Sequence record: PQ850618.1
Origin: Escherichia phage ManiWeber_Bas99
Strand: one strand, 5' to 3'
Length of the DNA: 64,000 bases
The translations under genes and the position numbers were made by a program. Position 1 is the stretch's first letter; every line of letters starts with the position of its first letter. This document shows positions 1 to 62,553 of this stretch, one piece after another. The notes under the pieces were generated by a model. The model worked only from the letters and a program-made list of their open reading frames with translations. It searched no databases and was not told where the DNA came from.

Positions 1-267
1 GGTCCAAATCTGAAGTCGCCGAAAGTCTTTATCGTGAACCAAAACGATAACTACTCTGGCGAGTTTGATGAACACAAGTGTATGCTTGGATTCGATTCAG
101 CAGAAGAAGCGAAAGAAGCTTATCAAGCATCATTTGGTAACGGTTGGAACGGATTCGACTCAATCCACGAATTAGATGTGAACTCATTCAAGGAGTGGTT
201 GAAGGGTGATTGCTCTCAAGCATACGGAGCACTCAATAATCCTACTAATTCACCGAAGCAAGGTTGA
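1..267 (+). CDS. 3' end of a gene continuing upstream of the window (possibly portal, by position only)
   Basis: Frame is open from base 1 to the stop at 265-267; sits directly upstream of the head morphogenesis gene. Confidence 0.35.
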   Translation, partial: GPNLKSPKVFIVNQNDNYSGEFDEHKCMLGFDSAEEAKEAYQASFGNGWNGFDSIHELDVNSFKEWLKGDCSQAYGALNNPTNSPKQG

Positions 268-268
268 T

Positions 269-1120
269 ATGGCTTTTAAAGCTTCGAAAAAACGTGAACG
301 CCGCTCACCCGATAGAGTCGGGCGCGGCAGTCCGATAATCCCATCCAACGCTATTGCGATGGCCTATCGTCGTGAGATGAAAGGTCTTTGCTATGCGATG
401 ATTGACGACTATCAAGCAGGAATTGCTGAGTGGCTTGAAAAGAAGCAGGTTAAAAAGTTCTTTGCGCAAGACTCTGCTGATTCAACTTTTCAGACCTTGA
501 TGAAGCGACTGCAACTGAAATGGGCAAAAGCTTTCGCCCGTGTCGGGTCAAAGATTGCCGCAGATTTCATCAAGTCAGTTGAAAAGGGTGCCACTTCTGC
601 TACATTTGCAAGTCTTAAATCTGCAGGAATAGAAGCGCCAAAAGCCACATATAATAAATTCGTTGAGAACACTCTTAAAACAAGCGAGACGTTCAACACG
701 ACTTTAGTGACTAAGGTTGGCGAAGATATTCACAACAGGGTGTACGAAGCGGTGATGCTTTCGCTGACTTCGCCAGACCCAGCGCAACAAGGCACGTCAG
801 GCATTCAGGCGGCATTAAGAAATGTAAAACACTTCTCTGCAAAACGCGTAGACCTTATCGCTAAAGACCAAACGAGCAAACTTTATTGCGTATTAAGTGA
901 TGAAAGGATGCGACAGAATGGCGTTGAGGAATTTGAGTGGGCGCATTCAGGAGCAGGCAAAGAGCCGCGAATATCGCATGAGCATGTCGATGGAATGAGA
1001 TTCAAGCTTGATGACAAACGCTTATGGGAAGTAGGTGGAGAACTTAAGTTCAAAAAGGGTGACATCGGTCCTCCTGGATGGGCGATACACTGCAAGTGCA
1101 GAAAAATACCAATTATCTGA
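269..1120 (+). CDS. Head morphogenesis protein (Mu gpF / SPP1 gp7-like)
   Basis: ATG at 269 follows AAGG; about 284 aa; C-terminal W..G..HCKCR motif resembles the Mu F-like family; sits in the head module. Confidence 0.55.
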   Translation: MAFKASKKRERRSPDRVGRGSPIIPSNAIAMAYRREMKGLCYAMIDDYQAGIAEWLEKKQVKKFFAQDSADSTFQTLMKRLQLKWAKAFARVGSKIAADFIKSVEKGATSATFASLKSAGIEAPKATYNKFVENTLKTSETFNTTLVTKVGEDIHNRVYEAVMLSLTSPDPAQQGTSGIQAALRNVKHFSAKRVDLIAKDQTSKLYCVLSDERMRQNGVEEFEWAHSGAGKEPRISHEHVDGMRFKLDDKRLWEVGGELKFKKGDIGPPGWAIHCKCRKIPII

Positions 1121-1127
1121 GGTCATT

Positions 1128-2048
1128 ATGACGATACCAATCAACACATTCCCTCTATCTGGACAAACTCCAGTCTTGCCTGCGGTGTATGCTAATGGCT
1201 TGGCGATTGTCTCAGAATTCACTTCTGATAAAAACTTGATTGTTCCACTGAGCCCGCCGCTTGCATCGGGGTACAACTCAGTAGGTCAATTCTTTATGAT
1301 TGGCAATGATGGCGATTCGACCAGCAAGCCTAATCTGACATTGTCTGTACCTAAGATGAACATCACCGACGTTCAAACTGGCTTGACTGCATCAACAATC
1401 ACCATTGCTTTTGGAGAAGCAGTGATTATAGGAATGGAGTCTGGAGGGTCCAAGAATGCTGTCGCCGTTAAGGTAGTCAAATCCAGCGACAACCAATACA
1501 CTTTACCAGCTGCGACGGCTTCCGTTCTCGGCGGCGTCAAAATAGGAAGCGGAATAAGCGTCGCAGGTGACGGTACAATTAGCGTCACTCAATACTCATT
1601 GCCGATTGCGTCAGCATCTACTTTAGGCGGCGTAAAGGTCGGTACAACTCTATCAATTGATGGTTCCGGTGTGCTTAACGCAGCGGCAAGCACCGTCCAG
1701 AATGCCACGAACAGTGTTAGCAATCCTCCAACCACTTTGGTTAATCTGGCAACATTAAACCTTCCTGCAGGCAAGTGGCTGGTCACGGCAAGCCAATTGA
1801 CCGTTGCAACAGCAGGCGTTCAAGCGAATACCGGAATTACAGTCAAATTGTCAACAAGCAATTCAGATATTACGGATGATGCATTTACCATGTCAGCTGG
1901 CATTCGGGCTGCAGGTCGTTTCGGCGGCAACATCCCAACAAAAGTAATTACTCTTGCCGCGCCTGGTAATGTGTATTTAAACTATCAGTGCACCGACGCG
2001 TTGACATCTACCGTTTACGGACAGATCACCGCAATTAAGCTGAACTAA
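1128..2048 (+). CDS. Fibre-like repeat protein (virion-associated)
   Basis: Internal ATG after GAGG; repeated LGGVK(I/V)G..(I/L)S(V/I).G.G motifs as in phage fibre repeat domains. Confidence 0.4.
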   Translation: MTIPINTFPLSGQTPVLPAVYANGLAIVSEFTSDKNLIVPLSPPLASGYNSVGQFFMIGNDGDSTSKPNLTLSVPKMNITDVQTGLTASTITIAFGEAVIIGMESGGSKNAVAVKVVKSSDNQYTLPAATASVLGGVKIGSGISVAGDGTISVTQYSLPIASASTLGGVKVGTTLSIDGSGVLNAAASTVQNATNSVSNPPTTLVNLATLNLPAGKWLVTASQLTVATAGVQANTGITVKLSTSNSDITDDAFTMSAGIRAAGRFGGNIPTKVITLAAPGNVYLNYQCTDALTSTVYGQITAIKLN

Positions 2049-2222
2049 AGAGGAAGTTATGCAAAAGATTATTCAGTCACGTTATGTTAAAGTGCGAAAT
2101 ATTAATTGCAACTCTTTGCTTTCTTGGAAATGGGCTGTTTATGACTCGATGTTGATTGGCGTTTTAGTGGCAGGAGTGCTATTTAATATTCACTGAATTC
2201 ATCGGCAAAGGATTGCCGAGAG

Positions 2223-2505
2223 TTTTATACGTATAATGACGTATCATCCGTATCAAGTAAGTTGTTGTTTTCAAAAGAATCTTACGGATGATACGGATGA
2301 TACGCGTTGCCGCCGTACTATATAGGAATTCAAATAAATTAATTTAAAATTATATATCTAATTTAATTTTATTTTTTTATAAACTCTTATATGTGAAAAG
2401 TATCCGTATCATCCGTATCATCCGTATCACACCAGTGATAGCGCGGCTTATACACCGATACGGATAAAAATACGCCTCATTTTATCCGTATCATCCGTAT
2501 CACAC
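2223..2505. repeat. Iteron module A: inverted arrays of the 9-mer TCCGTATCA flanking an AT-rich core
   Basis: GTATCATCCGTATCA about 2241-2255; reverse copies about 2282-2304; about 70 bp of more than 85% AT at about 2325-2395; three tandem copies at about 2401-2430 and two at about 2482-2503. Confidence 0.7.
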
Positions 2506-2611
2506 TAATAAAGGCGCGGCTATATCGGTTGTTATACATATTCAAACCATAATTATTGTTTGCCTAAGTTTTTTTCATTAGATATAATACACAATACTTA
2601 TTTGAGGGTGG

Positions 2612-4030
2612 ATGCGAATGCAAACGGCACGCGAAATTGACAAAAATGGATTCTTGACGATTATGGGTTGTCCGATTTCGTCATTTGGCATTTTTGATTA
2701 TTCTGCTGGTCAAGTTGGTCTTGATGGTGATCCGAATCGCATCGTAAAAGTCTATCGCCCTGAGTCAGCGGTGAAAGACCCCGAAGCGATAGATTCATTC
2801 AAAAATATCCCTTTCATCGACAATCACGAAATGCTTTCTGGATTTGAAGGTGATGAGGATAACACAGCACCCGAAGAGTATGGCGTTGATGGCGTTCTAA
2901 CTGGCAATGTTTATTATGACAAGCCATGGATGCGCGGCGACCTTAAAGTGTTTAGCCGTCGTCTGAAGAAGGCCATTGATTCTGGAAAGGTTGACTTGTC
3001 TTTGGGCTATGACTGTGAATTCATCATACAGTCTGGAGAGTTTGACGGGCAGCCGTATGAAGTGGTACAGACAACTCTTCGCGGCAACCACATTGCTCTC
3101 GTGGACGTTGGTCGAGTACCAGGTGCACGGGTGCTGGATGGTCGTTGCTTTGACCATCTTTGTTTGACGACTGTAACACCATCCAACGAGGATTTAGACA
3201 TGCCAAAACCGTTAAAAGGTAAAGCGCGTGATAATGCTGTTGAACAGCTGAAATCACTGATCCCTGCGCTCGAACAATTTCTGAATGAAGAGAGCACCGA
3301 AGCGGCTCATCAGGACGAAGTTGAAGTGAAAGCAGAAGAGAAGGATTCAACCGAAGAACGTGAAGAAGTGATGGTTGATCCAGAAGTTAAAGCAGAAGCT
3401 GAAGAAACTCCAGAAGGTGAAGAGAAGTTTGAAGTTGAAACTGAATCTCACGCTGGCGGCGAGCTTCCGCAACTGATCAGCCAAATCGAAGCACTTATTG
3501 CAAAACTGAAAGGTGGCGCGGTAGGTGATGAAGAAGAAGTTGAAGCCGAAGTCAAAGACGAAGAAGTTGAAGTCAAGGCTGAAGATGTATCACCTTGCGA
3601 CAAAGCTGAAGATGTGGTTAGCGGCCTGCAAAACAGCAACGTAAAGGGGGCTTCGGTCGAAAAAGATGACAAACCGACAAAAGCGGCGAAAGCGTCGCCA
3701 GGTCCAGCAAAAGGGGAACACTCAATGGCATCTGATTCAGCAGTTGCTGCTTTCTACGCTGATTCTGCTCGTAAGAATAGCCTCTACCAGCGCCTGTCTA
3801 AAGTTGTTGGTGCCTTTGATCATGCAACTATGGACTCCAAGTCCGTAGCGAAATATGGCGCTAAAAAGTTAGGCTTGAAGTGCGTTGATGGTGCTGAGTT
3901 TGACGTGGTGGATAATTATCTGCGCGGCGTTGAACACGGTCAAAAACAGCGTGTAGTCGCAAAACAAAAGGCCGCTGCGGATTCTGCAGCGACTGACGAA
4001 GCATTTGAAGCTTGGTTGAAAGGGGAATAA
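2612..4030 (+). CDS. Putative prohead protease / scaffolding protein
   Basis: 472 aa; highly acidic E/V/K-rich central region typical of scaffolds; sits between morphogenesis and capsid genes; RBS GAGGG. Confidence 0.4.
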   Translation: MRMQTAREIDKNGFLTIMGCPISSFGIFDYSAGQVGLDGDPNRIVKVYRPESAVKDPEAIDSFKNIPFIDNHEMLSGFEGDEDNTAPEEYGVDGVLTGNVYYDKPWMRGDLKVFSRRLKKAIDSGKVDLSLGYDCEFIIQSGEFDGQPYEVVQTTLRGNHIALVDVGRVPGARVLDGRCFDHLCLTTVTPSNEDLDMPKPLKGKARDNAVEQLKSLIPALEQFLNEESTEAAHQDEVEVKAEEKDSTEEREEVMVDPEVKAEAEETPEGEEKFEVETESHAGGELPQLISQIEALIAKLKGGAVGDEEEVEAEVKDEEVEVKAEDVSPCDKAEDVVSGLQNSNVKGASVEKDDKPTKAAKASPGPAKGEHSMASDSAVAAFYADSARKNSLYQRLSKVVGAFDHATMDSKSVAKYGAKKLGLKCVDGAEFDVVDNYLRGVEHGQKQRVVAKQKAAADSAATDEAFEAWLKGE

Positions 4031-18977: not shown

Positions 18978-21716
18978 ATGCAAAAGTTTGACACAAACCT
19001 GTTGCAAAACCTTAAGTGGATGCAGAACAATGCGCCAAACATCACATCTTTGGTGCAAAAGAAAAGTGACTGGTATGAAAGATACCAAGATCAGTTTTGG
19101 ACTGACTGGTACAATAACATTTTTAACATTGACACTTGTGATGCAATGGGCATTTATATTTGGTGCGACATTCTTTGCATACCAAGAGACTTTGTGGACT
19201 TAAGCAATTATGAGCACAACTGGGCGTTTGGACCGACGCGCGACAACTTTGAAGGTGCGGACAACATCGGCGGCAACTTCTTTGGTGCTGGCGGGAAGGT
19301 TGTAAAGAATATCGAAGAAGCGCGCATACTTCTTAAGCTTCGTTATCTGACGCTTACAAGTGATGGCCGCATCGAAAGTATCAACCGCATGCTTAAGTGG
19401 ATTTTTAACCGTGGAGAGGCTTGGGATTACTCTTCATCACGCTACGCATATGTGACCGACAATACTCAAGGTGCGGTGTCTTCATCTGAATCAACAAATG
19501 GCTCATTCCTTCTGTACGACTGGCAAGGGTCAACTGAGATTCAGCATGATTATAAGCAGATACTTTTAAGCCATGGCAACAACGCCGGGCTGACCATCAG
19601 CGGAGTGTCAGGCACCGTGTCACGGATGGCGCACCCAGATTGGTACTCATGGGGAAATGGTTCCGGCACAGGGATTGTCGGCGGCGACACCAGACAGTAT
19701 GGTGGGCCTGATTACTATGGGCAGTTGTGTGGTGATTACCCAGGCGAGGCCATAGAGAATTTTGCCAACGCAGTAAGGGTCATCAAGACGGCTTCAAGCG
19801 GTGAGCCTGTGTATTCTTTGGCCAATAAACCAAGTGCCAAATCAATTTCGCTTCCTTCGCAGGCTGGCGTCAACGTTTGCTATAGCTTCTACATAAAGGT
19901 GCTTTCTGAAAATGTCGCTTCTGTTTCTGTTACAGAGAATAGTGATGCATCGAGTAATGGAAAGCTGTTTGACCCCGTCACTGGCCAGTTCAACTTGGAC
20001 CCGTCATTGAGCTATTTCATCAAAGGTAAATTCGATGGAGTAAGAAGGGAATCAAACCGTGGTGGCATAAAAGCAATTGGCGGCGATTGGTATCGAATCT
20101 GGATTGTAGAGCAGACGGCAACCGCTGCTTCTGGAGTAAGTACCAGCTTTTCAATAGAGTTGAAGGCGACTGCCGCTGGATCAACTCAAACTCGTGAATT
20201 GCCTGAAGGGTCTGATGCTCTTTTGTTTGGATACTCGATTTGCGTCTGCGACCCTGTTCAGAATCCAAATGGACCTGAGCCTTATTTTTATGGAACGCAA
20301 AACCCTCCTTCTGACGGAACAGCAATCCTGTCTGTAACGGCGGGAACGCTCAATAACATCTCCTGTGCAAACGGACCGCTGACGACAAGAAACGGTGTAG
20401 TTGGCGAGTCATTCATGCAACCTGGCTCATCACTTGCATACTCTGGCTCAATCGGCGGCTACCCGTACCCAGGGAACGCCACGCTGATTGCAGAGACTGA
20501 TGGAATCAGACGCTCATGGAACGTTAGCAGGCTGGATGGAGTACCGCCGCCGCCGACCGCCGACTATTACATGGAATACGTCATCGGACCTTATTTCGCC
20601 AACAACCTGTCTGACAACTTTAAGACGCTAGTTGGCGACAGGAATGAAGGATTCTTGCCAGCAAATGCCGGAATACGCTGGCAGCTTTACCAAGAAGTCG
20701 CAGACTTATCTGATATCGATTTGACTGTCAGCGACATAACAGACACGCGCGTAGGATTTGAAACGGAAGGTGTTGCGTGGATTAACACTGACGGTATCAT
20801 CAGAGTTGGCGGCATTAACGAGTGGCCACTGAACAACTTCAACGGTGTGATACGCCAGCTTGAATCTTTGAAAGGTGTAAACCAGGTCGTCGACGGCGCG
20901 CTTGTCAACGACTATTCAATCTCAAAAGCATCAAGAGATGACTTTGGTCGTGAAATACCACGCGCGGCAATCACTAACTATTGGCGCTACACACAGCCAA
21001 ATGACGGTACATCTTTTGGCAATATCATTGAGGATGGCGCAAACACTGTCACAGCGACGCCAATCAGCGGTGCGCCCAACCAGTTCCCATCATTCAAGCT
21101 TTCCGCTACAATAGGGACTGTGCCAGCATCCGGTTATGCACGCGCTGTACTTGCTACTAAATACACTGGCACCCTGACCGGCCCTTTGTCATTTATCGCG
21201 ATAGTCAAAAACAACACGGTTAACGGTCAAAAACTTTTTGTAACTGTACCGGACGGGATGGGCGACTATATCCCTAAATTCTACAACATAGGCGCAGGTG
21301 ATTTGCAACGTATCGAAATTGACCTTGCCGCTGAGATTGTTGAAGGCGCTACCTGGGATGGATCAACAGGTGGCATCAGCATCGGTTTGATATCAGGGAA
21401 AGACTTGCCGACCGAAGTTGGTACGACTCTTGAACTTGATATTTTAAGCTTGATGCTTGTGTCTGGTAATACGATGAATGCGCTTGCAATTTCAACAAGC
21501 GAAGATTTCGCAAAGAAAACTGCGACTTCTATATACATCAAAAACCCAGGATCACTTGCCACTGGAGTTCAATTGATTGCTTCTAATGGTGATGTTGTAG
21601 CAACAGTAAACTTTCCGAGAAGTGCTGCTGGTGGTTATGTTTCAAGCATGAACATAACTGACTTAACTGGTGATTGGGCATCAACCCTTTTATCAAAAAT
21701 TAAATACATCGTGTAG
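18978..21716 (+). CDS. Baseplate wedge / tail fibre protein
   Basis: 912 aa; Trp/Tyr-rich N-terminus followed by a long Gly/Ser/Thr-rich fibre-like region. Confidence 0.45.
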   Translation: MQKFDTNLLQNLKWMQNNAPNITSLVQKKSDWYERYQDQFWTDWYNNIFNIDTCDAMGIYIWCDILCIPRDFVDLSNYEHNWAFGPTRDNFEGADNIGGNFFGAGGKVVKNIEEARILLKLRYLTLTSDGRIESINRMLKWIFNRGEAWDYSSSRYAYVTDNTQGAVSSSESTNGSFLLYDWQGSTEIQHDYKQILLSHGNNAGLTISGVSGTVSRMAHPDWYSWGNGSGTGIVGGDTRQYGGPDYYGQLCGDYPGEAIENFANAVRVIKTASSGEPVYSLANKPSAKSISLPSQAGVNVCYSFYIKVLSENVASVSVTENSDASSNGKLFDPVTGQFNLDPSLSYFIKGKFDGVRRESNRGGIKAIGGDWYRIWIVEQTATAASGVSTSFSIELKATAAGSTQTRELPEGSDALLFGYSICVCDPVQNPNGPEPYFYGTQNPPSDGTAILSVTAGTLNNISCANGPLTTRNGVVGESFMQPGSSLAYSGSIGGYPYPGNATLIAETDGIRRSWNVSRLDGVPPPPTADYYMEYVIGPYFANNLSDNFKTLVGDRNEGFLPANAGIRWQLYQEVADLSDIDLTVSDITDTRVGFETEGVAWINTDGIIRVGGINEWPLNNFNGVIRQLESLKGVNQVVDGALVNDYSISKASRDDFGREIPRAAITNYWRYTQPNDGTSFGNIIEDGANTVTATPISGAPNQFPSFKLSATIGTVPASGYARAVLATKYTGTLTGPLSFIAIVKNNTVNGQKLFVTVPDGMGDYIPKFYNIGAGDLQRIEIDLAAEIVEGATWDGSTGGISIGLISGKDLPTEVGTTLELDILSLMLVSGNTMNALAISTSEDFAKKTATSIYIKNPGSLATGVQLIASNGDVVATVNFPRSAAGGYVSSMNITDLTGDWASTLLSKIKYIV

Positions 21717-21726: not shown

Positions 21727-23511
21727 ATGCCAACACTTATTAACAGACCTTTCGCGCAAAGCGGTGATGTATCCGTGGTGCCGGATGCAAGTCCAAGCGG
21801 TTATGTGAACTTCCAGCGCGGCTACACCCCTGACTATGCACTTGCCCTGGAAGCCGGAAACGTCGCCGCGAAAGCGGTTGAACGTGAGTCGATGAACTGG
21901 TTGCTGAATCTGATCACCGACAACCTTATGTTCATCCAGGACCACGGCGCTCAACAGTATTTCTCGTCTGACTTGAAGCCAGATGGATACCCGAAAAATG
22001 CCATCGTTGTCAGCAACTCTGGCACCCCTTCAGCGCCTGAATGGCGCATTTTCCAGAGTGTGGTAGACGGCAACACCAGCGCAGTCCCAGCTAACGGCGA
22101 AACGGAATCTTGGCAGGAATTGACGCTGCCTAGCGAAGCGAGAAAATATATTCCTATGCCTGCTGGCGGCGATGCGCAAAACCCGTATTTTGTTCGCGGA
22201 CTGATTTCAAACTTTGTGGACTTTGATAATATCACGACTTCCACAACTATTGTCATCCAATCTGACGCCGTTGCCGCTCTCTGCTCTAACATCCCGAACG
22301 CGGTTGGTGCGACGAAGGTTGCAGGTCGTCTCCAGGTTTGCGCTTGGCAGGTTGATGCGCAAACTTTTGCCCTGCAGCAATACACATCAATGAACGGATA
22401 TGTTTTCACCCGCTCTTATACTTCTGGTGCTTGGAGTGCCTGGATTCAAAATGCTACTGTTCAAGACGTGCAAATTGGAACGCCGAATCTTGCATCAGGT
22501 AAAGGCGCACAAGATATAATCCTTACCGTTCCAGCAGGTTATTCATGGCCTCCGTCAGCAGGTAGTCGCCTGACAATCGTCAATGATGTGACGACTACCG
22601 GACCTGTCACCGTGACCATTGGTGTAAACAAAGTTGCCGTTCTTGGATTCGACGGCAGCGAGTTGCCAGCTGGCGCTATCGTAGGCCTGTTGCCATTCAC
22701 CATCATCTATGACGGCACTGTTTGGCGTCTTCTTCAGGCATTCGGCGCGGCGCAAATCGGCGTTGATGCTACGGAGCCGCAGCAGTTTGTTACCAAAAGG
22801 CAACTTGACGCGCTTGCCGCGAAGTTGATTACCATGGGCGACGTATTCGAAGTTGGTGAGACTCGATTCCTTACCAACGGGACCAACCCAAATACTAAAC
22901 TGGGCGCTTACGGTCAGGTATGGACAAGGTTGCCTGATAACATGGTGATTCGCACGTCTGGAACGGCGCGAAACGGTCTTGATACAGGCGGTGCAGACTC
23001 TGTTACTCTTACCGCCGCAATGCTTCCACTCCACAATCACAGTGTGAACATTACCACGCGACAAAGTGGTCCATGGTCCAATACCACTGGAGACGCAGGC
23101 AACCATAGCCACACAGGCGATACAAGCCAAAACGGTGCTCACTCTCACGGTATGGATGCAGCTGGTAACCACCATCACGACAGCGGATGGGGCGAGGCGT
23201 ATGCCGACCAAGCTCGATACGGAGTTTATGATGGAACAAACAACAACATTGGAAGCAGAAAGACGGATTATGATAACTACAAGTTCAACACTTCAACTAA
23301 CGGCAACCATGTCCACAATATTCAATCTTCTGGTTCACACACCCATGGCTTGAATATTCAATTTTCCGGCAATCACAGCCACGGCTATACACTTCCCGCT
23401 CACACTCACGATGTGGTCGGTAACACTGGCGATGCAGGGCAGTCGGTGCCAACGGCTGTTTCAACTCTGCCGCGATACGTTGTTTTGAATGGCTGGTACA
23501 GAAGCGCATAA
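21727..23511 (+). CDS. Tail fibre distal / receptor-binding protein with His-rich tip
   Basis: ATG after AGAGGAACGG; C-terminus carries seven HxH-type motifs (NHSH, AHSH, NHHH, NHVH, SHTH, NHSH, AHTH) like the metal-binding needle domains of T4 gp37/gp12-type fibres. Confidence 0.6.
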   Translation: MPTLINRPFAQSGDVSVVPDASPSGYVNFQRGYTPDYALALEAGNVAAKAVERESMNWLLNLITDNLMFIQDHGAQQYFSSDLKPDGYPKNAIVVSNSGTPSAPEWRIFQSVVDGNTSAVPANGETESWQELTLPSEARKYIPMPAGGDAQNPYFVRGLISNFVDFDNITTSTTIVIQSDAVAALCSNIPNAVGATKVAGRLQVCAWQVDAQTFALQQYTSMNGYVFTRSYTSGAWSAWIQNATVQDVQIGTPNLASGKGAQDIILTVPAGYSWPPSAGSRLTIVNDVTTTGPVTVTIGVNKVAVLGFDGSELPAGAIVGLLPFTIIYDGTVWRLLQAFGAAQIGVDATEPQQFVTKRQLDALAAKLITMGDVFEVGETRFLTNGTNPNTKLGAYGQVWTRLPDNMVIRTSGTARNGLDTGGADSVTLTAAMLPLHNHSVNITTRQSGPWSNTTGDAGNHSHTGDTSQNGAHSHGMDAAGNHHHDSGWGEAYADQARYGVYDGTNNNIGSRKTDYDNYKFNTSTNGNHVHNIQSSGSHTHGLNIQFSGNHSHGYTLPAHTHDVVGNTGDAGQSVPTAVSTLPRYVVLNGWYRSA

Positions 23512-23519: not shown

Positions 23520-24164
23520 ATGATTAATGCAAACGTAATATCTAAAGGGACCGGATGCAGCATGGATGTTGCTGAAAAATGGGTCGACCCCTTCAAGCAG
23601 GCTTGTGAGCACTACGGAATCAAAAGCAAGAATGCCATCGCGGCGCTGCTTGCAAACGTAGGAGTGGAAACAGGCAGTCTGAAGACCTTTGTGGAAAACC
23701 TGAATTATTCCGCTCAAGGTCTTGCTAATACGTGGCCTAGCCGTTACAGCGCCAGCGGTCGTTTCGGTGGCGCACCAAACTCCTTGGCATTGTCGATTGC
23801 CCGTAAACCAATGGAAATCGCCAATAATACATATGCAAACCGAATGGGAAATGATTCGGTAGCATCTGGCGACGGTTGGAAGTACCGTGGCCGTGGTGCC
23901 ATTCAGCTGACTGGAAAGGCTAACTATGCAGAGTATTCAAAACAATCAGGGTATGACGCATTGAATAACCCTGACATTTTGACTGAGCCGAAATACATCG
24001 CTGACAGCGCGGCGTGGTTCTTCAAGAACAGCGGTTGCATTCCACTTGCCGATGCGGGTGCATTTGATTCGACCGTGAAGCGGATTAACGGGGCCGCGCC
24101 GAATACGGCCAACCACGGGGATTTGCGACGGAAGCGTTACAAGGATGCACTAGCAGTTATGTAA
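23520..24164 (+). CDS. Endolysin, glycoside hydrolase family 19 (chitinase-like)
   Basis: 214 aa; motifs ...VGVETGSL... and ...YRGRGAIQLTGKANY... match GH19 lysozyme-like endolysins. Confidence 0.6.
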   Translation: MINANVISKGTGCSMDVAEKWVDPFKQACEHYGIKSKNAIAALLANVGVETGSLKTFVENLNYSAQGLANTWPSRYSASGRFGGAPNSLALSIARKPMEIANNTYANRMGNDSVASGDGWKYRGRGAIQLTGKANYAEYSKQSGYDALNNPDILTEPKYIADSAAWFFKNSGCIPLADAGAFDSTVKRINGAAPNTANHGDLRRKRYKDALAVM

Positions 24165-54349: not shown

Positions 54350-54685
54350 TTCATACGTATCATGACGTATCATTGGGCTATTGATTTATAAGGAAAAATA
54401 CGCTGATACGGATGATACGGATGCAAACATAATATATATAGAATTCCAGAAAATTAATTAACTCCATTTTGAATTAATTTAAATTAATTTTTTTCTACAT
54501 CCTCATACTTATACTAAACTTATATTTATACGTATTATCCGTAAGATATAAGTAAAAACAAAGACTTGCGGCAATACGGATGATACGTCATGATACGCTT
54601 CAACCAGCCAGCAGCGGCTAAGTCATTGATTTGCATAGCAAGCGGCGAAAGGGATGGATTTCTTTTATACGTATCAAACAGTACA
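54350..54685. repeat. Iteron module B: same repeat family and architecture as module A
   Basis: ACGTATCATGACGTATCAT about 54354-54373; reverse copies about 54404-54423 and 54574-54597; AT-rich core about 54424-54530; TTTTATACGTAT shared with module A. Confidence 0.7.
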
Positions 54686-54826
54686 CCACGCACCACGGTC
54701 CGTTATCCATTCAGCAATATGATTTGTGTACGTTTATAGCCATAATGAACATCAATCTGCACTTGAATATAATGTTCATCCATTGTATAATTCACACTAT
54801 TAATTTGCACTATGGGATTTTGCACT

Positions 54827-55300
54827 ATGAGTCAAGATTATGTAGCGATGCCTGAAGACTTTGAAGACCCGCGATTTGCAGAGCACAATCAGGCTTTATT
54901 CGATGAGTTCATTGACCTTGTTATTCAGGGCCATGACATGCGCGCAGCTTTTGCACTAGTATTTGGAATGGAAGTTGCAACGGATAACTACACTGGCCAG
55001 CGAATCCTTTGCACGCAACGCAATCCATACTACAAGATGCGCTTCAAAAAGCGTATGGAAGAGATGCCACTCAAGGATTTGTGGAGCGTAAAAGGTGCAA
55101 TTCACAATTTGGTTAAGCTTGTGCGTGATCCAGAAGTCGCAGCGTCAGCCAAGCTTAATGCTATTCGTGAACTGAATATCATCTACGGCATCACGATGAT
55201 TGATGAAAACGGCAATAGTAAAATGGGCCGTTCCATGGACGATTTCTACAAGGATTTTGGAGAGGCGGCCAAAGAAGGTGAGCAATTCTCCCGCCACTAG
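54827..55300 (+). CDS. Putative DNA-binding protein (possible terminase small subunit)
   Basis: ATG overlapping an 11-mer copy; about 157 aa; helix-turn-helix-like N-terminus; adjacent to iteron module B; assignment tentative. Confidence 0.3.
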   Translation: MSQDYVAMPEDFEDPRFAEHNQALFDEFIDLVIQGHDMRAAFALVFGMEVATDNYTGQRILCTQRNPYYKMRFKKRMEEMPLKDLWSVKGAIHNLVKLVRDPEVAASAKLNAIRELNIIYGITMIDENGNSKMGRSMDDFYKDFGEAAKEGEQFSRH

Positions 55301-55317
55301 CCAATTTGCACTATAAA

Positions 55318-55355
55318 ACGGCCCTAGAACACATCTTCTCCACTTCTAGGGCCAT
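55318..55355. other. Strong hairpin GGCCCTAGAA-(14)-TTCTAGGGCC
   Basis: Perfect 10-bp stem directly downstream of 54827-55300; weak T-tract on the minus strand. Confidence 0.4.
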
Positions 55356-55728
55356 CGGTAATACGACGGGGAAGGTTACAACCATAAACGCGTTAGAAAG
55401 TGTATTATTATAAGTCATCTTTTAGTCACTTTACGTAACAATTTACGACCTTCAGCCGTCCAATCGAACGACTCCACCAGCAGATTCGCACTATAACCTA
55501 AGATGATGCGCCCTTTCTCGTTATCGACCCGCCAACAAGTCTCGAATAGCATTCGATTTGCACTATTAACTATCGCCGCAACGCGCGTAGGGTAAACGCA
55601 ATTTGCACTATGGTCATAAAGGGATAAGGTGCGACCACTTCCGATGGACAACGTAGCGATGAGAATGAGCGTATTCATAAGCCACCAATTTGCACTATGA
55701 AAAGCGACCCCGAAGGGCCGCCATTCGA

Positions 55729-56355
55729 TTAGATAATCTGGAAGGTGTAGGACTTGTTGCCGAACTCGAAGTTCAAGCGCCCAGCTTCCTTAAGCTTCAT
55801 GCGGAAGCGAATGTGCTTGCTATCCGGTAATCCCAGCGCGGCGAACGCTACGCGGACCGATTTGAACTCGCCTACACCCTCGACCATGACACCGTTACGG
55901 GTAAGACGCTTTTGCGCCACTTCCTTATTATCCCAGCTTTTTGCAATACCTTCGCTATTCGAACGGCGATGGGAAGGAGTTCCATTTTGCACTACGCAAT
56001 TTGCACTATCGTTTAAACCGCTCTTAACGAAGGCTTCATATTCTTCGTCGGTCATCGCGTCGAGTTCTTCCTGGGTCGGCTCAGCCTTTTTAACGACCGC
56101 ACGCGCCTTATGCGTTTTTACATCGCTGGACACTTCCTCGCGCGACTTCGCGTCTGGGATGGGCGATTCGTTGGACGGCTCATCTAGCGCGTTTAAGGAC
56201 TCGATTAACGCGATGACGCGAGTCTCAGCGGTCCGGCGGTCCGAAAATTTCTTAATCGGCTTCGAACCGGAATTTGCATTATAAAATGCAACGAGGTCGG
56301 CGGTCTTAGTTGCGATAACGTCGCCGCTAGTCGAGAAACGATTTAAGCTAACCAT
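55729..56355 (-). CDS. Hypothetical protein in the CG-rich island
   Basis: 208 aa; strong RBS TAGGAG; codon and dinucleotide usage differ from the rest of the window; contains 11-mer copies. Confidence 0.4.
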   Translation of the reverse strand: MVSLNRFSTSGDVIATKTADLVAFYNANSGSKPIKKFSDRRTAETRVIALIESLNALDEPSNESPIPDAKSREEVSSDVKTHKARAVVKKAEPTQEELDAMTDEEYEAFVKSGLNDSANCVVQNGTPSHRRSNSEGIAKSWDNKEVAQKRLTRNGVMVEGVGEFKSVRVAFAALGLPDSKHIRFRMKLKEAGRLNFEFGNKSYTFQII

Positions 56356-56435
56356 AATAAACTCCTATTTGTTAGGGCGCTAGGCGCGAAAGAATTTTAT
56401 TAAAGCGCCGCGCACGACGCTCTAAAAATCCTCTC

Positions 56436-56720
56436 TTACGCTTCGACGAGGGAGAAGGTCTCAAATTCTTCTTCGCCCATAACGAGTAAGATATTACCGA
56501 TTTCGACCGCTTCGAAGAAATATCCGTTAACGTTTACTTCGAAGGCTTCGCGGTCCGATTCCGGTAGCGCCGCGTAAAGTTTAAAAGCCTCGGCGACCGT
56601 TACCCCACCCGCCTCGATAGTTTGGCCTACGTTCGCGGCGTAGACTTCGGATAAAATTTGTTTTACGCCGTAGTTCTCGACGATAGCGTTACGAATAGAA
56701 GAAACGTTAAGAATAGCCAT
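56436..56720 (-). CDS. Small acidic protein, island paralog A
   Basis: 94 aa; RBS AGGAG; paralog of 57355-57645 (NVNGYFFEAVEIGNILLV vs TINGFVYTITEIGGEYLAV). Confidence 0.45.
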   Translation of the reverse strand: MAILNVSSIRNAIVENYGVKQILSEVYAANVGQTIEAGGVTVAEAFKLYAALPESDREAFEVNVNGYFFEAVEIGNILLVMGEEEFETFSLVEA

Positions 56721-56744
56721 TTTAAACTCCTAGTTGGGAGAGGC

Positions 56745-57247: not shown

Positions 57248-57256
57248 CGAAAAAGT

Positions 57257-60145: not shown

Positions 60146-60219
60146 CTCACTTGTTAACGTATAATGAGTATAACTTAATAGTGCATAAAGTAAAGGCGCT
60201 TTTCAGCGCCTTGAGTGAA

Positions 60220-62553
60220 TTATTTCGCTGCTTTTAGCGCGGCTATCTCTGCCTCTAGTGACTCGACCTTCTTCATCAACTCCTGCACCACGTGCATCGT
60301 ATCCAAAAGCATAGGTGTTGTGTCAAGTTCTTTTTGTTCAACAATTTCTCCTGGATTGCTGCCAATATACTTACGCGTCTTAACATATAAAGGCTCAACG
60401 ACCTCTGCTTGCTGTGCAATAATGCCATGCCGAACTCGATTTTGTTCGTCATTGTCATAAATGAACTCTACAAATTCCAGTCCTTTAATATTAGAGTATG
60501 ATTTATCAACTCCAACAGGGGCGATGCCGTGTTTTACACGTGAGTCAGAAGTGCCATTTTTTGTATAACTGAAGTTACCGTAATCGGTTGAACCATATAT
60601 TTGACCATCAATGTCAAAAAAGTAACGGCAAAATTTTCCGTTATCTCCACCGATTACCACGCAAGCTATGCCGAATGCATCATTACCTGGTAAATACATA
60701 TGGTATCCAACCTTGGTTGGGTATCCATTAGGTTTGGTGGCACCGATAGAATAGCCGCGCACCAGCGTATCTGATCCACTCGCGATTGCCACCCTGTCCA
60801 TTCCGTTAGTGGTCAAGTTAGATACAGCGGCATCCGTTATTCCATTCCATGTGCCTAAAGGCGTATACATGCGGAATGGGTTGGTCTTCCCTGACTGTCG
60901 AAAGTCAACGGTGCCATCTTCATAGAATTTATAAGCGTGCTTGGAAGAACCCTCCGCCTCTACGACGGCAAAACTAGAAGAACCCCATGAAGAACTTGAG
61001 TACAGACGTGCAAACTGTGATGAACTAGGATTGCTATATTTTGACTCTACTTTGCCGCCGACAACCAATGTGCCTGCCACTGGTGCGCTTGAGTCTGCAT
61101 TTATTACGCTCCAAGACGTATTCGCAGCAACAAATCCACCCGATGCACGAATCACCCAAACGCCAACGAAGTTACGCGGAACAATTTCCGCTGCTGAACG
61201 GCCATAAACAGGACTGCAGCGAGAGGCGTCAAAGTTTGTTTGTATGAATCTTGACCCAGAGCCTGCTGCCGCAGGAGAGTCACCCGAAGTTATTGACTGA
61301 AAAGCACCATTAGTTGCCACTTGGCTTGGCAAAGAAGCCAATGTCACCATTGTGTGCGGCGCTGTGTAAGTTATATTTGGAGCGCCTGATTCAGACACAA
61401 CCCCGTTGGATGATGAATTCCCACCGTCACCCCTGCCGAATAAGGCCTGTATGGAACCAGTCTGCACCCCGTTGCGGTCTGGCACACGGAATGTCGTTGT
61501 TCCGTTACCCAGAGAATACTTGCCGCGTTTTGCTGGGTTGGCAAGCCAGTCAGCATCGGCAATAGGGGAAAGCATTTGCGCATAAGCCCACAGTTCAGGC
61601 CAGTCCGCACGGTTGAGTAACTGTCCGTCGGAGACAACTTCATACGGCTGAATGTATGCGCGACTGTCGCGCAGGTGAAAATCACCAACGCCATAGTTCA
61701 TAACACCGTTCATGCTTGGGCCAACGGTGCCTGTGTTAACTAAGTTTTCGACCCAACGCTTAGTTGCAGCATCGTAATCATTCACAGGGTCGCCAGCCAG
61801 CGGAGTTGACCCTTGTGGACGAATATTTAGCCAAGCTTGAGCATTGTCTGCTGAGCCAGTACCGCCCATGGAAGTCGGGACAATGTTTTGATCAGCGACT
61901 GCGCCAAATCCAAAAGCGGACTTCATACCCTGAATGGTAGTTTGCCCTGTGCCGCCGTTGGCGACTGGAATTATATCGCCACTCGTGAAAAACTTGCGCC
62001 ATTCTGTCCATCCACTTACAGAATCATATGTCCTGGTATAGTGAAATGGGAGGTTGTACGCTCTGTATATTTGCACGCAACCTTCTATCGAGTTAGCCTT
62101 TGTTTGCTGGACTTCCAACACGCCTGCACTATCAACAGGATAATTCAGGGCCGTGCTTGCCGCTGAGCTTATCGGTTGGGAATACTGTCCAAACCATGAA
62201 CCAGTCAAGGCATTAAGGTTGATGCCTGAAGGAATCTCTCCAAAATTTCGCACAGTATTGGTCAAGGATGCGGCAGTAGTTCGAATGGAAAGCATGTCAC
62301 CAGCCGCCCATGCACGCGCTGCAGTCCCTTCCTGTGCACGCTGAACGGTCAGGACATCACCAACGACAGCTGTTACTGTGACGATTTCGAATTGGAGGCC
62401 TGTTGCAGCGTCGACGATTGTCGCCACTACACGCTCGTTTGCGCCCAAGGTCGGAAAGCCTGACCCTGAGCGAATTGTGATTGTGGTGTCTGAAGTCGTC
62501 GTTGGTTGAGCCAGCGCGACCTCAAAGTTGTTTTTGAATATTAGCCTTGGCAT
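60220..62553 (-). CDS. Tail fibre/spike with C-terminal intramolecular chaperone (S74-like) domain
   Basis: 777 aa; fibre-like N-terminus; C-terminal ...GTSDSRVKHGIAPV... resembles the autoproteolytic Ser-Asp-x-Arg-x-Lys site of S74 chaperone domains, then a coiled-coil tail. Confidence 0.6.
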   Translation of the reverse strand: MPRLIFKNNFEVALAQPTTTSDTTITIRSGSGFPTLGANERVVATIVDAATGLQFEIVTVTAVVGDVLTVQRAQEGTAARAWAAGDMLSIRTTAASLTNTVRNFGEIPSGINLNALTGSWFGQYSQPISSAASTALNYPVDSAGVLEVQQTKANSIEGCVQIYRAYNLPFHYTRTYDSVSGWTEWRKFFTSGDIIPVANGGTGQTTIQGMKSAFGFGAVADQNIVPTSMGGTGSADNAQAWLNIRPQGSTPLAGDPVNDYDAATKRWVENLVNTGTVGPSMNGVMNYGVGDFHLRDSRAYIQPYEVVSDGQLLNRADWPELWAYAQMLSPIADADWLANPAKRGKYSLGNGTTTFRVPDRNGVQTGSIQALFGRGDGGNSSSNGVVSESGAPNITYTAPHTMVTLASLPSQVATNGAFQSITSGDSPAAAGSGSRFIQTNFDASRCSPVYGRSAAEIVPRNFVGVWVIRASGGFVAANTSWSVINADSSAPVAGTLVVGGKVESKYSNPSSSQFARLYSSSSWGSSSFAVVEAEGSSKHAYKFYEDGTVDFRQSGKTNPFRMYTPLGTWNGITDAAVSNLTTNGMDRVAIASGSDTLVRGYSIGATKPNGYPTKVGYHMYLPGNDAFGIACVVIGGDNGKFCRYFFDIDGQIYGSTDYGNFSYTKNGTSDSRVKHGIAPVGVDKSYSNIKGLEFVEFIYDNDEQNRVRHGIIAQQAEVVEPLYVKTRKYIGSNPGEIVEQKELDTTPMLLDTMHVVQELMKKVESLEAEIAALKAAK

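What the first reader, a model, noticed from the sequence alone, without database searches (positions are those of the whole stretch)
21727..23511. Fibre tip with seven HxH motifs, plus a second unrelated fibre gene 37 kb away
The distal fibre protein ends in a His-rich tract with HxH spacing like the metal-binding needle of T4-type fibres. A second fibre gene (60220-62553, minus strand) has a C-terminal intramolecular chaperone-like domain and sits in a separate accessory module. Two structurally different receptor-binding proteins at distant loci suggest dual receptor specificity or a swappable host-range cassette.
Basis: partly seen in the sequence, partly recalled or inferred. Interest (0 to 1): 0.45.

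Follow-up and report, generated by a model that had tools for sequence, protein, structure and literature searches.

The report
Two known Wifcevirus tail fibres
The window is a Wifcevirus-type E. coli phage carrying the genus's two already-published tail fibres: a conserved one ending in a T4-like histidine/metal needle, and a mosaic, swappable one with a self-cleaving chaperone domain, so the finding is real but ordinary.

Summary
Both genes exist exactly at the stated coordinates. Fibre 1 (21727-23511, 594 aa) has eight HxH motifs, not seven: four on each side of a 43-aa tip. No shuffle of 20,000 reached eight. Its N-terminal 372 aa match the baseplate-attached fibre gp47 of Pseudomonas phage Pa193. 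A profile of its C-terminal family hits the T4 gp37 needle (2XGF). Fibre 2 (60220-62553, minus, 777 aa) is a mosaic: a conserved anchor, a pyocin-knob domain, a DT57C LtfA-like RBD1, a hypervariable RBD2, and a Peptidase_S74 chaperone domain.

The window is 88-94% identical in nucleotides to 28 Wifcevirus genomes. Humolli et al. 2025 (PLoS Biol) already described both fibres in this genus, including the HxH tip and the T-shaped dual-RBD fibre. Published mass spectrometry of phage preparations detected both orthologues.

Three things are added here. RBD1 and RBD2 assort independently. RBD2 class, not RBD1, tracks the O-serotype of the isolation host. The "37 kb apart" layout partly reflects how the sequence was linearised, because fibre 2 lies about 1.5 kb from the terminase gene in relatives.

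Both AlphaFold monomer models failed. Verdict: correct observation, partly correct interpretation, already known.

The parts
18978..21716 (+). 912-aa baseplate triplex (wedge) protein with an N-terminal DUF2612 domain. It is the probable docking partner of fibre 1.
   Evidence: Pfam DUF2612, E=4e-16. Residues 4-185 match Pa193 gp46 'Baseplate wedge 2' (9b45_v, E=1.9e-41) and E217 triplex gp45 (8env_K). The matched gp46 range 6-193 spans the published fibre-attachment loop, residues 80-113. The gene is 2739 nt in all 28 Wifcevirus records.
21727..23511 (+). Fibre 1: the conserved 594-aa (63.3 kDa) tail fibre, including its stop codon.
   Evidence: ORF. phrog_5717 'tail protein', E=1e-175. 100% coverage at 88-94% nucleotide identity in 28 Wifcevirus records. 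95.5-98.7% amino-acid identity in 8 relatives.
21727..22842 (+). Fibre 1, aa 1-372: baseplate-attachment and shaft region homologous to the Pbunavirus tail fibre.
   Evidence: phmmer hit to 9b45_2 'gp47 Tail fiber', E=7.6e-32, query 2-372 against chain 4-368. The Pa193 contact residues Ile41 and Leu43 align to Leu39 and Leu41.
22843..23031 (+). Fibre 1, aa 373-435: collar-like domain leading into the first HxH motif.
   Evidence: Alignment A1 shows the pattern conserved with proteins that carry Pfam Gp10_C or Collar domains (GGADSVTLT...LPxHxH). The window sequence itself is below Pfam thresholds.
23032..23178 (+). Fibre 1, aa 436-484: first series of four HxH motifs (HNH, HSH, HSH, HHH).
   Evidence: The flanking histidines are invariant in 9 phages. 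The family profile aligns this region with the T4 gp37 needle.
23179..23307 (+). Fibre 1, aa 485-527: tip segment between the two HxH series, the predicted distal receptor-contact head.
   Evidence: 14 of 42 variable sites fall here against 3.0 expected (P=1.6e-7). dN/dS was at most 0.09 where it could be computed, with synonymous divergence (dS) saturated. Homologues with 3-13 HxH motifs all have one gap of 34-54 aa at this position.
23308..23409 (+). Fibre 1, aa 528-561: second series of four HxH motifs (HVH, HTH, HSH, HTH).
23410..23508 (+). Fibre 1, aa 562-594: C-terminal segment ending in the conserved ...LNGWYRSA.
   Evidence: Conserved C-terminal motif (LMGWYRxA) in alignment A1.
60220..62553 (-). 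Fibre 2: the variable 777-aa (82.9 kDa precursor) tail fibre, including its stop codon.
   Evidence: ORF. phrog_6921 'tail fiber protein', E=1.5e-205. Only 2 of 40 matching phage records cover at least 80% of the gene.
62254..62553 (-). Fibre 2, aa 1-100: conserved N-terminal anchor domain.
   Evidence: 90-100% identical in 15 Wifceviruses. Residues 4-100 match the tail fibre of PDB entry 8jov (18 chains), E=1e-10. 40-53% identity to N-termini of fibres and tailspikes of Ralstonia GP4-like, Burkholderia Bcep22-like, Klebsiella, Yersinia and Pantoea phages.
61954..62253 (-). Fibre 2, aa 101-200: pyocin-knob-like domain. The window's allele is not seen elsewhere.
   Evidence: Matches R2 pyocin fibre structures 6ct8 and 6cl6, E=6e-10 and 5e-9. 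48-57% identical to the 14 other Wifceviruses compared. Best in the phage collection 62.5%. Best in the 5.8-billion-protein set 61-75%, on partial sequences.
61054..61953 (-). Fibre 2, aa 201-500: RBD1, called gp12-like in the literature.
   Evidence: Residues 232-508 match 8hqz_d 'L-shaped tail fiber assembly' residues 538-823 (domain E=2e-115). Six allele groups at 85% identity among 15 phages. 83.9% nucleotide identity to phage fp01.
60550..61053 (-). Fibre 2, aa 501-668: RBD2, the hypervariable distal tip.
   Evidence: Median pairwise identity 15% among 15 phages, in about six homology classes. 87-91% identical to stand-alone 380-384-aa fibres in metagenomes. A family profile is colinear with 8hqz_d residues 737-873.
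60223..60549 (-). Fibre 2, aa 669-777: intramolecular chaperone (Peptidase_S74). Predicted self-cleavage is between T668 and S669.
   Evidence: Pfam PF13884, 32.4 bits against a cut-off of 22, residues 669-721 on profile positions 1-54. The SDSRVK motif starts at residue 669. Across 20 homologues S669 is nearly invariant and D670 and K674 are invariant. It aligns with the N-terminus of chain 3gud, SDERHK.
60193..60212 (-). Terminator-like hairpin just after the fibre 2 stop codon.
   Evidence: Consensus scan: 8-bp stem with a weak T tract. WFC is annotated with a terminator at the same place.

Best explanation
The window is most of the genome of a Wifcevirus-like E. coli/Shigella myovirus that carries the genus's two standard tail fibres.

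Fibre 1 (21727-23511) is the canonical baseplate fibre. Its N-terminal 372 aa are homologous to the Pbunavirus fibre gp47. By that homology it docks as a trimer on the triplex protein encoded immediately upstream (18978-21716). Its C-terminus is a collar followed by a gp37-type needle. Four GxHxH motifs run outward, a 43-aa tip turns the chain, and four GxHxH motifs run back. In a trimer this would give eight stacked sites, each with six histidines around one metal ion.

Fibre 2 (60220-62553, minus strand) is a modular adhesin. It has a conserved N-terminal anchor, a pyocin-knob domain, an LtfA-like RBD1, and a hypervariable RBD2. A C-terminal S74 chaperone folds the RBD2 tip and then cuts itself off at T668|S669.

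Inferred mechanism: fibre 2 makes the first, host-range-determining contact with O-antigen or another surface glycan. RBD2 is the main serotype determinant, and it changes by cassette exchange with T5-like and other phages. The conserved fibre 1 then binds a conserved secondary receptor and passes the signal through the triplex protein to trigger contraction.

Shown here: gene structure, homologies, motif conservation and mosaicism. Taken from the literature: detection of both orthologues by mass spectrometry of phage preparations, dependence on O16 O-antigen, and the gp47-gp46 contact. Inferred: metal binding, order of use, the receptor of fibre 1, and where fibre 2 attaches.
For: - Identity: 28 Wifcevirus records cover fibre 1 fully at 88-94% nucleotide identity. 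Gene order matches Bas98, WFC, FEC19, ECML-117 and others.
- Fibre 1 N-terminus matches 9b45 gp47 at E=7.6e-32. The upstream protein matches 9b45 gp46 at E=1.9e-41. The Pa193 paper resolves gp47 loops 38-52 bound to gp46 loop 80-113.
- Needle: eight HxH motifs against 0.5-1.6 expected by chance. The flanking histidines are invariant in 9 phages. 35 homologues have 3-13 HxH motifs around a single 34-54-aa gap. The family profile hits T4 gp37 2XGF at E=8e-15 and T4 gp10 C-terminus weakly.
- Fibre 1 is under strong purifying selection, dN/dS 0.01-0.09.
- Fibre 2 modules are defined. Mosaicism is shown.
- In RBD2, all four phages from O157 hosts fall in one homology class (58-80% identical to each other, 11-18% to others). 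All three O16 phages fall in another (96-99%). RBD1 does not sort this way.
- Bas98-101 depend totally on O16 O-antigen, and the same paper describes both fibres.
- Mass spectrometry detected vB_Eco4M-7_27 (fibre 2, 34 peptides, 80% coverage) and _63 (fibre 1, 13 peptides). The locus tags were mapped to the two genes.
Against: - No structure could be obtained. AlphaFold2 monomer models of both C-termini had mean pLDDT of 55.9 and 46.8.
- The 2XGF hit carries a compositional bias term (49 bits) about as large as its score. The window sequence alone hits neither 2XGF nor any Pfam family.
- The mass spectrometry used phage preparations that also contained helicase and endolysin, so it is not strict proof of virion incorporation.
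- The link between RBD2 class and host serotype rests on 15 phages, on host labels as written in the records, and on isolates that are not independent.
- The receptor of fibre 1 and the docking site of fibre 2 are unknown. The authors who described the fibres call their relationship 'unclear'.
- The 8hqz match is to the deposited chain sequence. Whether the RBD residues are modelled in that entry was not checked.
Confidence: 0.6

Rival explanations
1. The two fibres are alternative adhesins. Each recognises a different primary receptor, so the phage can infect two kinds of host, as with the two tailspikes of SP6.
For: Two different fibre proteins were both detected by mass spectrometry. Alternative use of two receptor-binding proteins is documented for other phages and is discussed in the BASEL paper.
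Against: Fibre 1 is 95.5-98.7% identical across phages isolated on O157:H7, O16 K-12 and other E. coli hosts, with dN/dS of 0.09 or less. FEC19, from an O157:H7 host, has the same tip residues as the O16 phages Bas98 and Bas100, so tip alleles do not follow host serotype. All four BASEL isolates lose infectivity completely without O16 O-antigen, so fibre 1 does not offer an independent route on K-12.
Confidence: 0.12
2. Fibre 1 does not bind a receptor at all. It is a purely mechanical or trigger element of the baseplate, and fibre 2, with its two RBDs, does all the recognition. This is close to the published suggestion of 'a more mechanical role'.
For: Fibre 1 is highly conserved and under strong purifying selection everywhere. 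The authors suggest this role.
Against: The homologous Pbunavirus phages target LPS as receptor. Published work on T4 gp37 places receptor binding at the needle tip (my recollection, not a tool result). The little variation there is concentrates in the 43-aa tip (14 of 42 sites, P=1.6e-7). The tip also shows much deeper synonymous divergence than the shaft, which suggests exchanged tip alleles.
Confidence: 0.2
3. Fibre 2 is not a stable virion component. It would be a moron-like or accessory product sitting among small early-type genes, and the His tract of fibre 1 would be a compositional accident.
For: All nine neighbouring small ORFs lack any functional annotation. The mass spectrometry samples also contained non-structural proteins.
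Against: The fibre 2 orthologue had the highest protein score and 80% coverage in the vB_Eco4M-7 dataset. Its N-terminal anchor is 90-100% conserved and resembles virion-attached fibre N-termini. The gene is present in every Wifcevirus examined, in the same position next to terL. The HxH pattern is never reached by shuffling and is conserved across distant homologues.
Confidence: 0.03

Closest known systems
Wifcevirus tail fibres as described for ManiWeber/Bas99 (Gp32 and Gp114) in Humolli et al. 2025, PLoS Biol, PMC11990801
   Same: Same genus-level genome and same two genes in the same positions. Gp32 is the conserved fibre with a T4 gp37-like elongated tip and HxH motifs. Gp114 is the T-shaped fibre with an N-terminal anchor, gp12-like RBD1, T5-like RBD2 and intramolecular chaperone. 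The Bas98, Bas100 and Bas101 orthologues are 95.5-96.5% (fibre 1) and about 68% (fibre 2) identical to the window proteins.
   Different: The window's fibre 2 has a different RBD2/chaperone class from the BASEL isolates compared here (14-15% identity in RBD2, 70-71% in the chaperone). Its knob allele is not found in any compared phage (57% or less). Bas99 itself was not compared.
T4 gp37 long-tail-fibre tip (PDB 2XGF): collar, needle and head with His-coordinated metal ions
   Same: GxHxH motifs arranged in two series around a distal tip. The profile of the fibre-1 C-terminal family aligns with 2XGF residues 98-229 at E=8e-15. The 2XGF segment printed in that alignment shows seven HxH motifs.
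   Different: There are eight motifs here. The fibre is a single 594-aa protein attached directly to the baseplate, not the distal quarter of a four-protein long fibre. No chaperone gene lies between fibre 1 and the endolysin; the need for gp38/gp57A in T4 is my recollection. The fibre is conserved rather than host-range variable. Single-sequence searches do not reach 2XGF.
Pseudomonas Pbunavirus tail fibre (Pa193 gp47, PDB 9b45) and its docking partner gp46
   Same: N-terminal 372 aa are homologous (E=7.6e-32). The partner triplex protein is encoded immediately upstream with a homologous N-terminal 185 aa. The hydrophobic contact residues are conserved.
   Different: Pa193 gp47 is 962 aa and lacks the HxH needle; only a non-significant stretch aligned there. 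The Wifcevirus triplex protein is 912 aa against 504 aa. The search with the fibre-2 anchor listed no Pbunavirus among the records shown.
8hqz chain d, 'L-shaped tail fiber assembly' (recalled as LtfA of T5-like phage DT57C), and T5-type fibre tips with an intramolecular chaperone
   Same: Fibre 2 residues 232-777 are colinear with chain d residues 538-1076. RBD1 is nearly identical (domain E=2e-115) and the chaperone domain is clearly homologous. RBD2 plus chaperone is shared at 79-91% nucleotide identity with several other phage records, including VogelGryff.
   Different: Chain d is 1076 aa, with a long N-terminal region that fibre 2 lacks. Fibre 2 has its own compact anchor instead. RBD2 is diverged.
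T4 two-step adsorption (variable long fibres, then conserved gp12 short fibres)
   Same: The proposed working logic is the same: a variable fibre for reversible, host-specific binding and a conserved fibre for the committing step. This is inference supported by the conservation contrast.
   Different: The structural resemblances are crossed. The gp37-like needle sits on the conserved fibre and the gp12-like domain on the variable one. The order of use is not demonstrated.

Membership tests
Genus Wifcevirus (ECML-117-like myoviruses) | Genome-level nucleotide similarity and shared gene order with WFC, WFH, ECML-117 and FEC19 | tested here: met
   Three genes tested give 88-99% nucleotide identity at full coverage in 28 records. 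The same neighbours are found around both fibre genes. The region matching the WFC terminal repeat maps to window 54466-58219 at 94-97% identity.
T4 gp37-type metal-binding needle tip | Multiple GxHxH motifs in two series flanking a distal tip, beyond chance and conserved | tested here: met
   Eight HxH motifs (six of them GxHxH), arranged 4 + 43-aa tip + 4. None of 20,000 shuffles reached eight. The flanking histidines are invariant in 9 phages and the architecture is shared by 35 homologues.
T4 gp37-type metal-binding needle tip | Sequence homology to the solved gp37 tip (2XGF) | tested here: inconclusive
   The family profile hits 2XGF at E=8e-15, but with a compositional bias of 49 bits against a domain score of 52. 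The single sequence finds nothing.
T4 gp37-type metal-binding needle tip | Interdigitated homotrimer with octahedral His6 metal sites | not testable with these tools
   Only monomer AlphaFold2 was available. The model had mean pLDDT 55.9 and pTM 0.26 and was unusable. A published AlphaFold-Multimer model of the Bas99 orthologue shows an elongated tip with HxH motifs.
Pbunavirus-type baseplate fibre (Pa193 gp47) | Homologous N-terminal attachment region, with a gp46-like triplex partner carrying the attachment loop | tested here: met
   E=7.6e-32 over residues 2-372. The partner matches at E=1.9e-41 over residues 4-185, covering gp46 loop 80-113. Ile41 and Leu43 align to Leu39 and Leu41.
Peptidase_S74 intramolecular chaperone | Pfam PF13884 above the gathering score | tested here: met
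   32.4 bits against 22, residues 669-721.
Peptidase_S74 intramolecular chaperone | A serine at the start of the domain with a lysine five residues downstream (the Ser/Lys catalytic dyad as I recall it from endosialidase chaperone domains) | tested here: met
   S669-D-S-R-V-K674. D670 and K674 are invariant and S669 nearly invariant in 20 homologues. The motif aligns with the first residues of the cleaved phi29 appendage domain 3gud.
Peptidase_S74 intramolecular chaperone | Autoproteolytic release after trimer folding | not testable with these tools
   The published mass spectrometry reports only the predicted precursor mass (82.7 kDa), not the processed form.
T-shaped dual-RBD lateral fibre (LtfA / IrisVonRoten Gp24 / ManiWeber Gp114) | Colinear RBD1, RBD2 and chaperone homologous to LtfA | tested here: met
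   phmmer E=7e-134 with domains 232-508 and 660-775. The profile of RBD2+chaperone homologues matches 8hqz_d residues 737-873 and 911-1073.
T-shaped dual-RBD lateral fibre (LtfA / IrisVonRoten Gp24 / ManiWeber Gp114) | gp12/collar-type fold of RBD1 and T5-type fold of RBD2, arranged in a T shape | tested here: inconclusive

The most novel reading that the evidence does not exclude
Host range in these phages may be set by a three-module code within fibre 2 (knob, RBD1, RBD2) rather than by 'two fibres'. The RBD2+chaperone cassette would be the true O-serotype determinant, because RBD2 class, but not RBD1 class, sorts perfectly with O157 versus O16 isolation hosts among the 7 serotyped phages of the 15 compared. 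The pyocin-knob segment would be a third, previously unremarked exchangeable module, and this window carries an allele of it seen nowhere else (65% identity or less over near-full coverage). The 'conserved' fibre 1 also carries anciently diverged, recombining tip alleles, so it may read a second, slowly varying receptor.
Probability: 0.3. Interest if true: 0.35.

Novelty: already known. Interest (0 to 1): 0.15.

Why it matters
It matters little as a discovery. The two-fibre arrangement, the HxH needle and the T-shaped dual-RBD fibre of Wifcevirus phages were published in 2025 with multimer models and O-antigen phenotypes.

The practical value is for phage engineering and host-range prediction. 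The analysis here indicates which sub-gene cassette to swap (RBD2+chaperone, window 60223-61053) and which parts to keep (anchor 62254-62553 and all of fibre 1). It also gives a clear, testable cleavage site (T668|S669).

Two open questions remain for the genus: where fibre 2 docks on the baseplate, and what fibre 1 binds.

Tried and rejected
1. AlphaFold2 monomer models of fibre 1 aa 370-594 (36-sequence alignment) and fibre 2 aa 500-777 (20 sequences) had mean pLDDT of 55.9 and 46.8. This is expected for interdigitated trimers. I therefore ran no fold searches, because matches to such models would be meaningless.

2. Pfam on fibre 1 gave no family, even at E=1 for the C-terminus. The domain assignment had to come from homologues and profiles.

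3. I tested whether the two fibres share a collar domain, because phrog_4849 hits both. hhalign gave 0.4% probability, so I rejected this at that sensitivity.

4. I suspected the 912-aa triplex gene varies in length (700 or 841 aa in WFC and SP13 annotations) and might be a third host-range gene. Rejected: it is 2739 nt in all 28 records, and the short annotations are split ORFs.

5. I tested for positive selection on the fibre 1 tip. Rejected: dN/dS was 0.09 or less against distant alleles (not computable against Bas98), with synonymous divergence (dS) saturated. The tip variation reflects older, exchanged alleles under purifying selection.

6. I tested whether RBD1 or the knob segment track host serotype. 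They do not.

7. I looked for a chaperone or other functional partner among the nine small ORFs around fibre 2. There were no informative PHROG or Pfam hits.

8. I searched for the donor of the window's knob allele. The best hits were 61-75% identical, on partial proteins, in the 5.8-billion-protein set, and 62.5% in the phage collection.

9. GC content differs between fibre 2 modules (42.8-53.7%). This fits mosaicism but is not decisive.
Full report
**What is in the sequence**

Fibre 1 runs from ATG 21727 to the stop at 23509-23511 (+ strand, 594 aa, 63.3 kDa). It has a good ribosome-binding site and starts 10 nt after the stop of the preceding gene. Fibre 2 is 60220-62553 on the minus strand (777 aa, 82.9 kDa).

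Fibre 1 contains eight HxH motifs, not seven: HNH436, HSH460, HSH472, HHH482, HVH528, HTH538, HSH550 and HTH559. Seventeen of its 18 histidines lie in the last 160 residues. In 20,000 shuffles of the whole protein or of the C-terminal 164 aa, none reached eight (means 0.5 and 1.6). Fibre 2 has no HxH motif. It carries a Pfam Peptidase_S74 domain at residues 669-721, above the curated threshold.

**What genome this is**

Fibre 1 is covered completely at 88-94% nucleotide identity by 28 phage records. All are Wifcevirus-type E. coli/Shigella myoviruses, including WFH, WFC, ECML-117, FEC19, vB_Eco4M-7 and BASEL Bas98/100/101. Gene order around both genes is the same as in those genomes:
- baseplate J-like wedge, then the 912-aa DUF2612 protein, fibre 1, and a GH19 endolysin;
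- on the other side, terminase (divergent), about five small genes, fibre 2, and more small genes.

**This is already published**

Humolli et al. [quoted passage not shown] The other is a T-shaped fibre with an N-terminal anchor, a gp12-like RBD1, a T5-like RBD2 and a C-terminal intramolecular chaperone. Their RBDs vary widely and are scattered across viral groups. Their four isolates depend totally on O16 O-antigen.

**Fibre 1 in detail**

Residues 2-372 match the tail fibre gp47 of Pseudomonas phage Pa193 (PDB 9b45, E=7.6e-32). The protein encoded just upstream (18978-21716) matches the Pa193 triplex subunit gp46 and E217 gp45 over its first 185 aa (E about 1e-41). The Pa193 cryo-EM paper resolves the contact between gp47 loops 38-52 and the gp46 attachment loop 80-113. 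It names Ile41 and Leu43 of gp47, which align with Leu39 and Leu41 here. Fibre 1 is therefore the whole baseplate fibre, not a "distal" half, and the 912-aa protein is a baseplate wedge component, not a proximal fibre.

The C-terminal 225 aa have no Pfam hit of their own. They do have 55 homologues, mostly enterobacterial prophage or tailocin fibres annotated with Gp10_C, Collar and fibre-repeat domains. The alignment shows a collar signature (GGADSVTLT...LPxHxH), a variable number of GxHxH repeats, one 34-54-aa gap, more GxHxH repeats, and a conserved ...GWYRxA end. Members carry 3-13 HxH motifs, so eight is mid-range.

A profile of this family hits the T4 gp37 tip structure 2XGF at E=8e-15 and T4 gp10 C-terminus weakly. 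The caveat is that the compositional-bias term is about as large as the score.

Across nine phages, all 16 flanking histidines are invariant while the middle residues vary (S/N, S/V, H/Y). That is the pattern expected if the histidines are ligands.

**Conservation of fibre 1**

Fibre 1 is 95.5-98.7% identical in eight relatives isolated on different hosts. Of 42 variable positions, 14 fall in the 43-aa segment between the two HxH series, against 3 expected (P=1.6e-7). This is not positive selection. Where it could be computed, dN/dS was 0.09 or less against the more distant alleles, and synonymous divergence in the tip and needle is much deeper than in the shaft. The tip therefore exists as a few old alleles moved by recombination and kept under purifying selection. 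The tip residues of FEC19 (O157:H7 host) equal those of the O16 phages Bas98 and Bas100, so tip alleles do not follow O-serotype.

**Fibre 2 in detail**

Sequence searches split fibre 2 into five modules:
- aa 1-100: an anchor resembling the N-terminus of the virion-bound fibre in PDB 8jov.
- aa 101-200: a knob like that of R2 pyocin fibres (6ct8, 6cl6).
- aa 201-500: RBD1, nearly identical to residues 538-823 of chain d of PDB 8hqz ('L-shaped tail fiber assembly').
- aa 501-668: RBD2.
- aa 669-777: the chaperone domain.

The predicted self-cleavage site is T668|S669, within S669-D-S-R-V-K674. D670 and K674 are invariant and S669 is nearly invariant in 20 homologues. Cleavage would leave a 70.6-kDa mature fibre.

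Among 15 Wifceviruses the modules behave very differently:
- The anchor is 90-100% identical.
- The knob falls into 11 groups at 85% identity.
- RBD1 falls into 6 groups.
- RBD2 falls into about six unrelated classes, with a median identity of 15%.

The modules assort independently. WFC shares the window's RBD2 (91%) but not its RBD1 (76-78%). FEC19 shares RBD1 (95%) but not RBD2 (16-19%). Pieces of the gene occur at 79-91% nucleotide identity in T5-like and other phage records, including VogelGryff. The RBD2+chaperone unit also occurs as stand-alone fibres of about 380 aa. The "swappable cassette" idea is thus right, but the units are domains, not the whole gene or the 58-64 kb region.

**What this analysis adds**

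First, RBD2 class follows the isolation host. The four phages from O157 hosts (FEC19, ECML-117, vB_Eco4M-7, Ro157lw) form one RBD2 class. The three O16 phages form another. RBD1 and the knob do not sort this way. The sample is small and not independent, but it points to RBD2 as the serotype determinant. The window shares its RBD2 class with WFH, WFC and the Shigella flexneri phage CWP003.

Second, the window's knob allele is 48-57% identical to every other Wifcevirus compared. Its best match elsewhere is 61-75%, on partial sequences.

Third, there is the genome layout. The 3,784-bp terminal repeat of WFC maps to window 54466-58219. On the packaged genome, by analogy with WFC, fibre 2 lies about 2 kb inside the left repeat. 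It is transcribed leftward and divergently from the terminase gene, which is about 1.5 kb away in relatives and lies in the roughly 4.4 kb missing from the window. The two fibre genes bracket the structural module (about 27.5 kb apart that way), rather than one being in a remote accessory island. The nine small neighbours have no recognisable function.

**Virion presence**

Published mass spectrometry of vB_Eco4M-7 detected both orthologues. Gene _27 (fibre 2) gave 34 peptides, 80% coverage and the highest protein score. Gene _63 (fibre 1) gave 13 peptides. The triplex protein _62 was also found. In ECML-117 the fibre 2 orthologue was found (tags mapped). The samples also contained some non-structural proteins, so this is supportive rather than strict proof.

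**Mechanism proposed**

The steps below are marked as shown or inferred.
1. Fibre 2 makes the first, host-specific contact with O-antigen. The O-antigen dependence comes from the literature, and the link to RBD2 is inferred here.
2. The conserved fibre 1, docked on the triplex protein (by homology), binds a conserved secondary receptor through the tip of a metal-stapled needle (inferred).
3. Fibre 1 then transmits the signal for baseplate rearrangement (inferred).

This works like the T4 long-fibre/short-fibre two-step. Curiously, the gp37-like needle sits on the conserved fibre and the gp12-like domain on the variable one.

The rivals are alternative use of the two fibres, a purely mechanical fibre 1, and a non-virion fibre 2. 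Each is weighed in the rival section, and the first and third fit the conservation and mass spectrometry data poorly.

**What failed**

Monomer AlphaFold2 models of both C-termini were unusable (mean pLDDT 55.9 and 46.8), so I ran no fold searches. Fold-level statements rest on sequence and profile homology and on the published multimer models.

**Verdict**

The biology is already described for this genus. Interest is low (0.15).

Noticed in passing
window 54466-58219: This stretch matches the 3,784-bp direct terminal repeat of phage WFC (record positions 1-3784, identical to 68689-72472) at 94-97% identity. The physical genome end of this phage is therefore probably near window 58220. The window is a circular-style permutation that lacks about 4.4 kb, including the terminase gene. 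A strong terminator-like hairpin lies at 58297-58315 on the minus strand, and the stretch 57646-58351 has almost no ORFs.
   Followed up: partly
window 18978-21716: The baseplate triplex protein is 912 aa, against 504 aa for its Pa193 homologue gp46, and only the first 185 aa align. The extra roughly 400 aa have no annotation and could be where the second fibre docks (speculation). The gene has two allele groups, about 98% and about 89.7% nucleotide identity. The window groups with FEC19 and the Bas phages here but with WFH for fibre 1, so there is a recombination joint inside the tail module.
   Followed up: partly
window 61954-62253 (fibre 2 aa 101-200): The pyocin-knob-like segment is 48-57% identical to 14 other Wifceviruses. 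Its best matches elsewhere are 61-75% identical, on partial sequences, in a 5.8-billion-protein set. The closest genome (WFH, OZ035737) is 93-99% identical in the rest of the gene.
   Followed up: yes
window 59855-60145 (minus strand, 96 aa): This small ORF lies immediately downstream of fibre 2 and has no PHROG or Pfam hit. Its vB_Eco4M-7 orthologue (_26, 10.5 kDa) was detected by mass spectrometry with 5 peptides and 62% coverage. It could be a fibre-associated or virion protein.
   Followed up: partly
window 62592-62933 (minus strand, 113 aa): The gene directly upstream of fibre 2 encodes a small protein with an N-terminal signal/transmembrane segment and a C-terminal hydrophobic segment. 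The vB_Eco4M-7 orthologue is annotated 'transmembrane domain and signal peptide'. Its function is unknown. The mechanical ORF list extends it to 182 aa from an upstream ATG.
   Followed up: no
window 23520-24164: A GH19 (chitinase class I) endolysin follows fibre 1 after 8 nt. No tail-fibre chaperone gene lies between them, unlike T4, where (as I recall) gp37 needs gp38 and gp57A. How the HxH needle folds here is unexplained.
   Followed up: no
related records: OP352608 (SP13), MZ501110 (VogelGryff), MG065692 ('Campylobacter phage C13'), PQ850608 (Bas98): There are annotation oddities in public records. The SP13 fibre 2 orthologue is named 'endo-N-acetylneuraminidase', presumably because of the S74 chaperone domain. 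The homologous VogelGryff region is called a 'lateral tail fiber chaperone'. A 99.9-kb record labelled Campylobacter phage C13 shares RBD1 sequence at 81.5% with E. coli phages. Several small Bas98 tail genes are labelled 'tail fiber protein'.
   Followed up: no
MK373776 (WFH) versus OZ035737 ('Wifcevirus WFH'): Two records carrying the same phage name match the window's fibre 2 differently (60% versus 91% coverage), so they do not carry the same fibre 2 allele.
   Followed up: no
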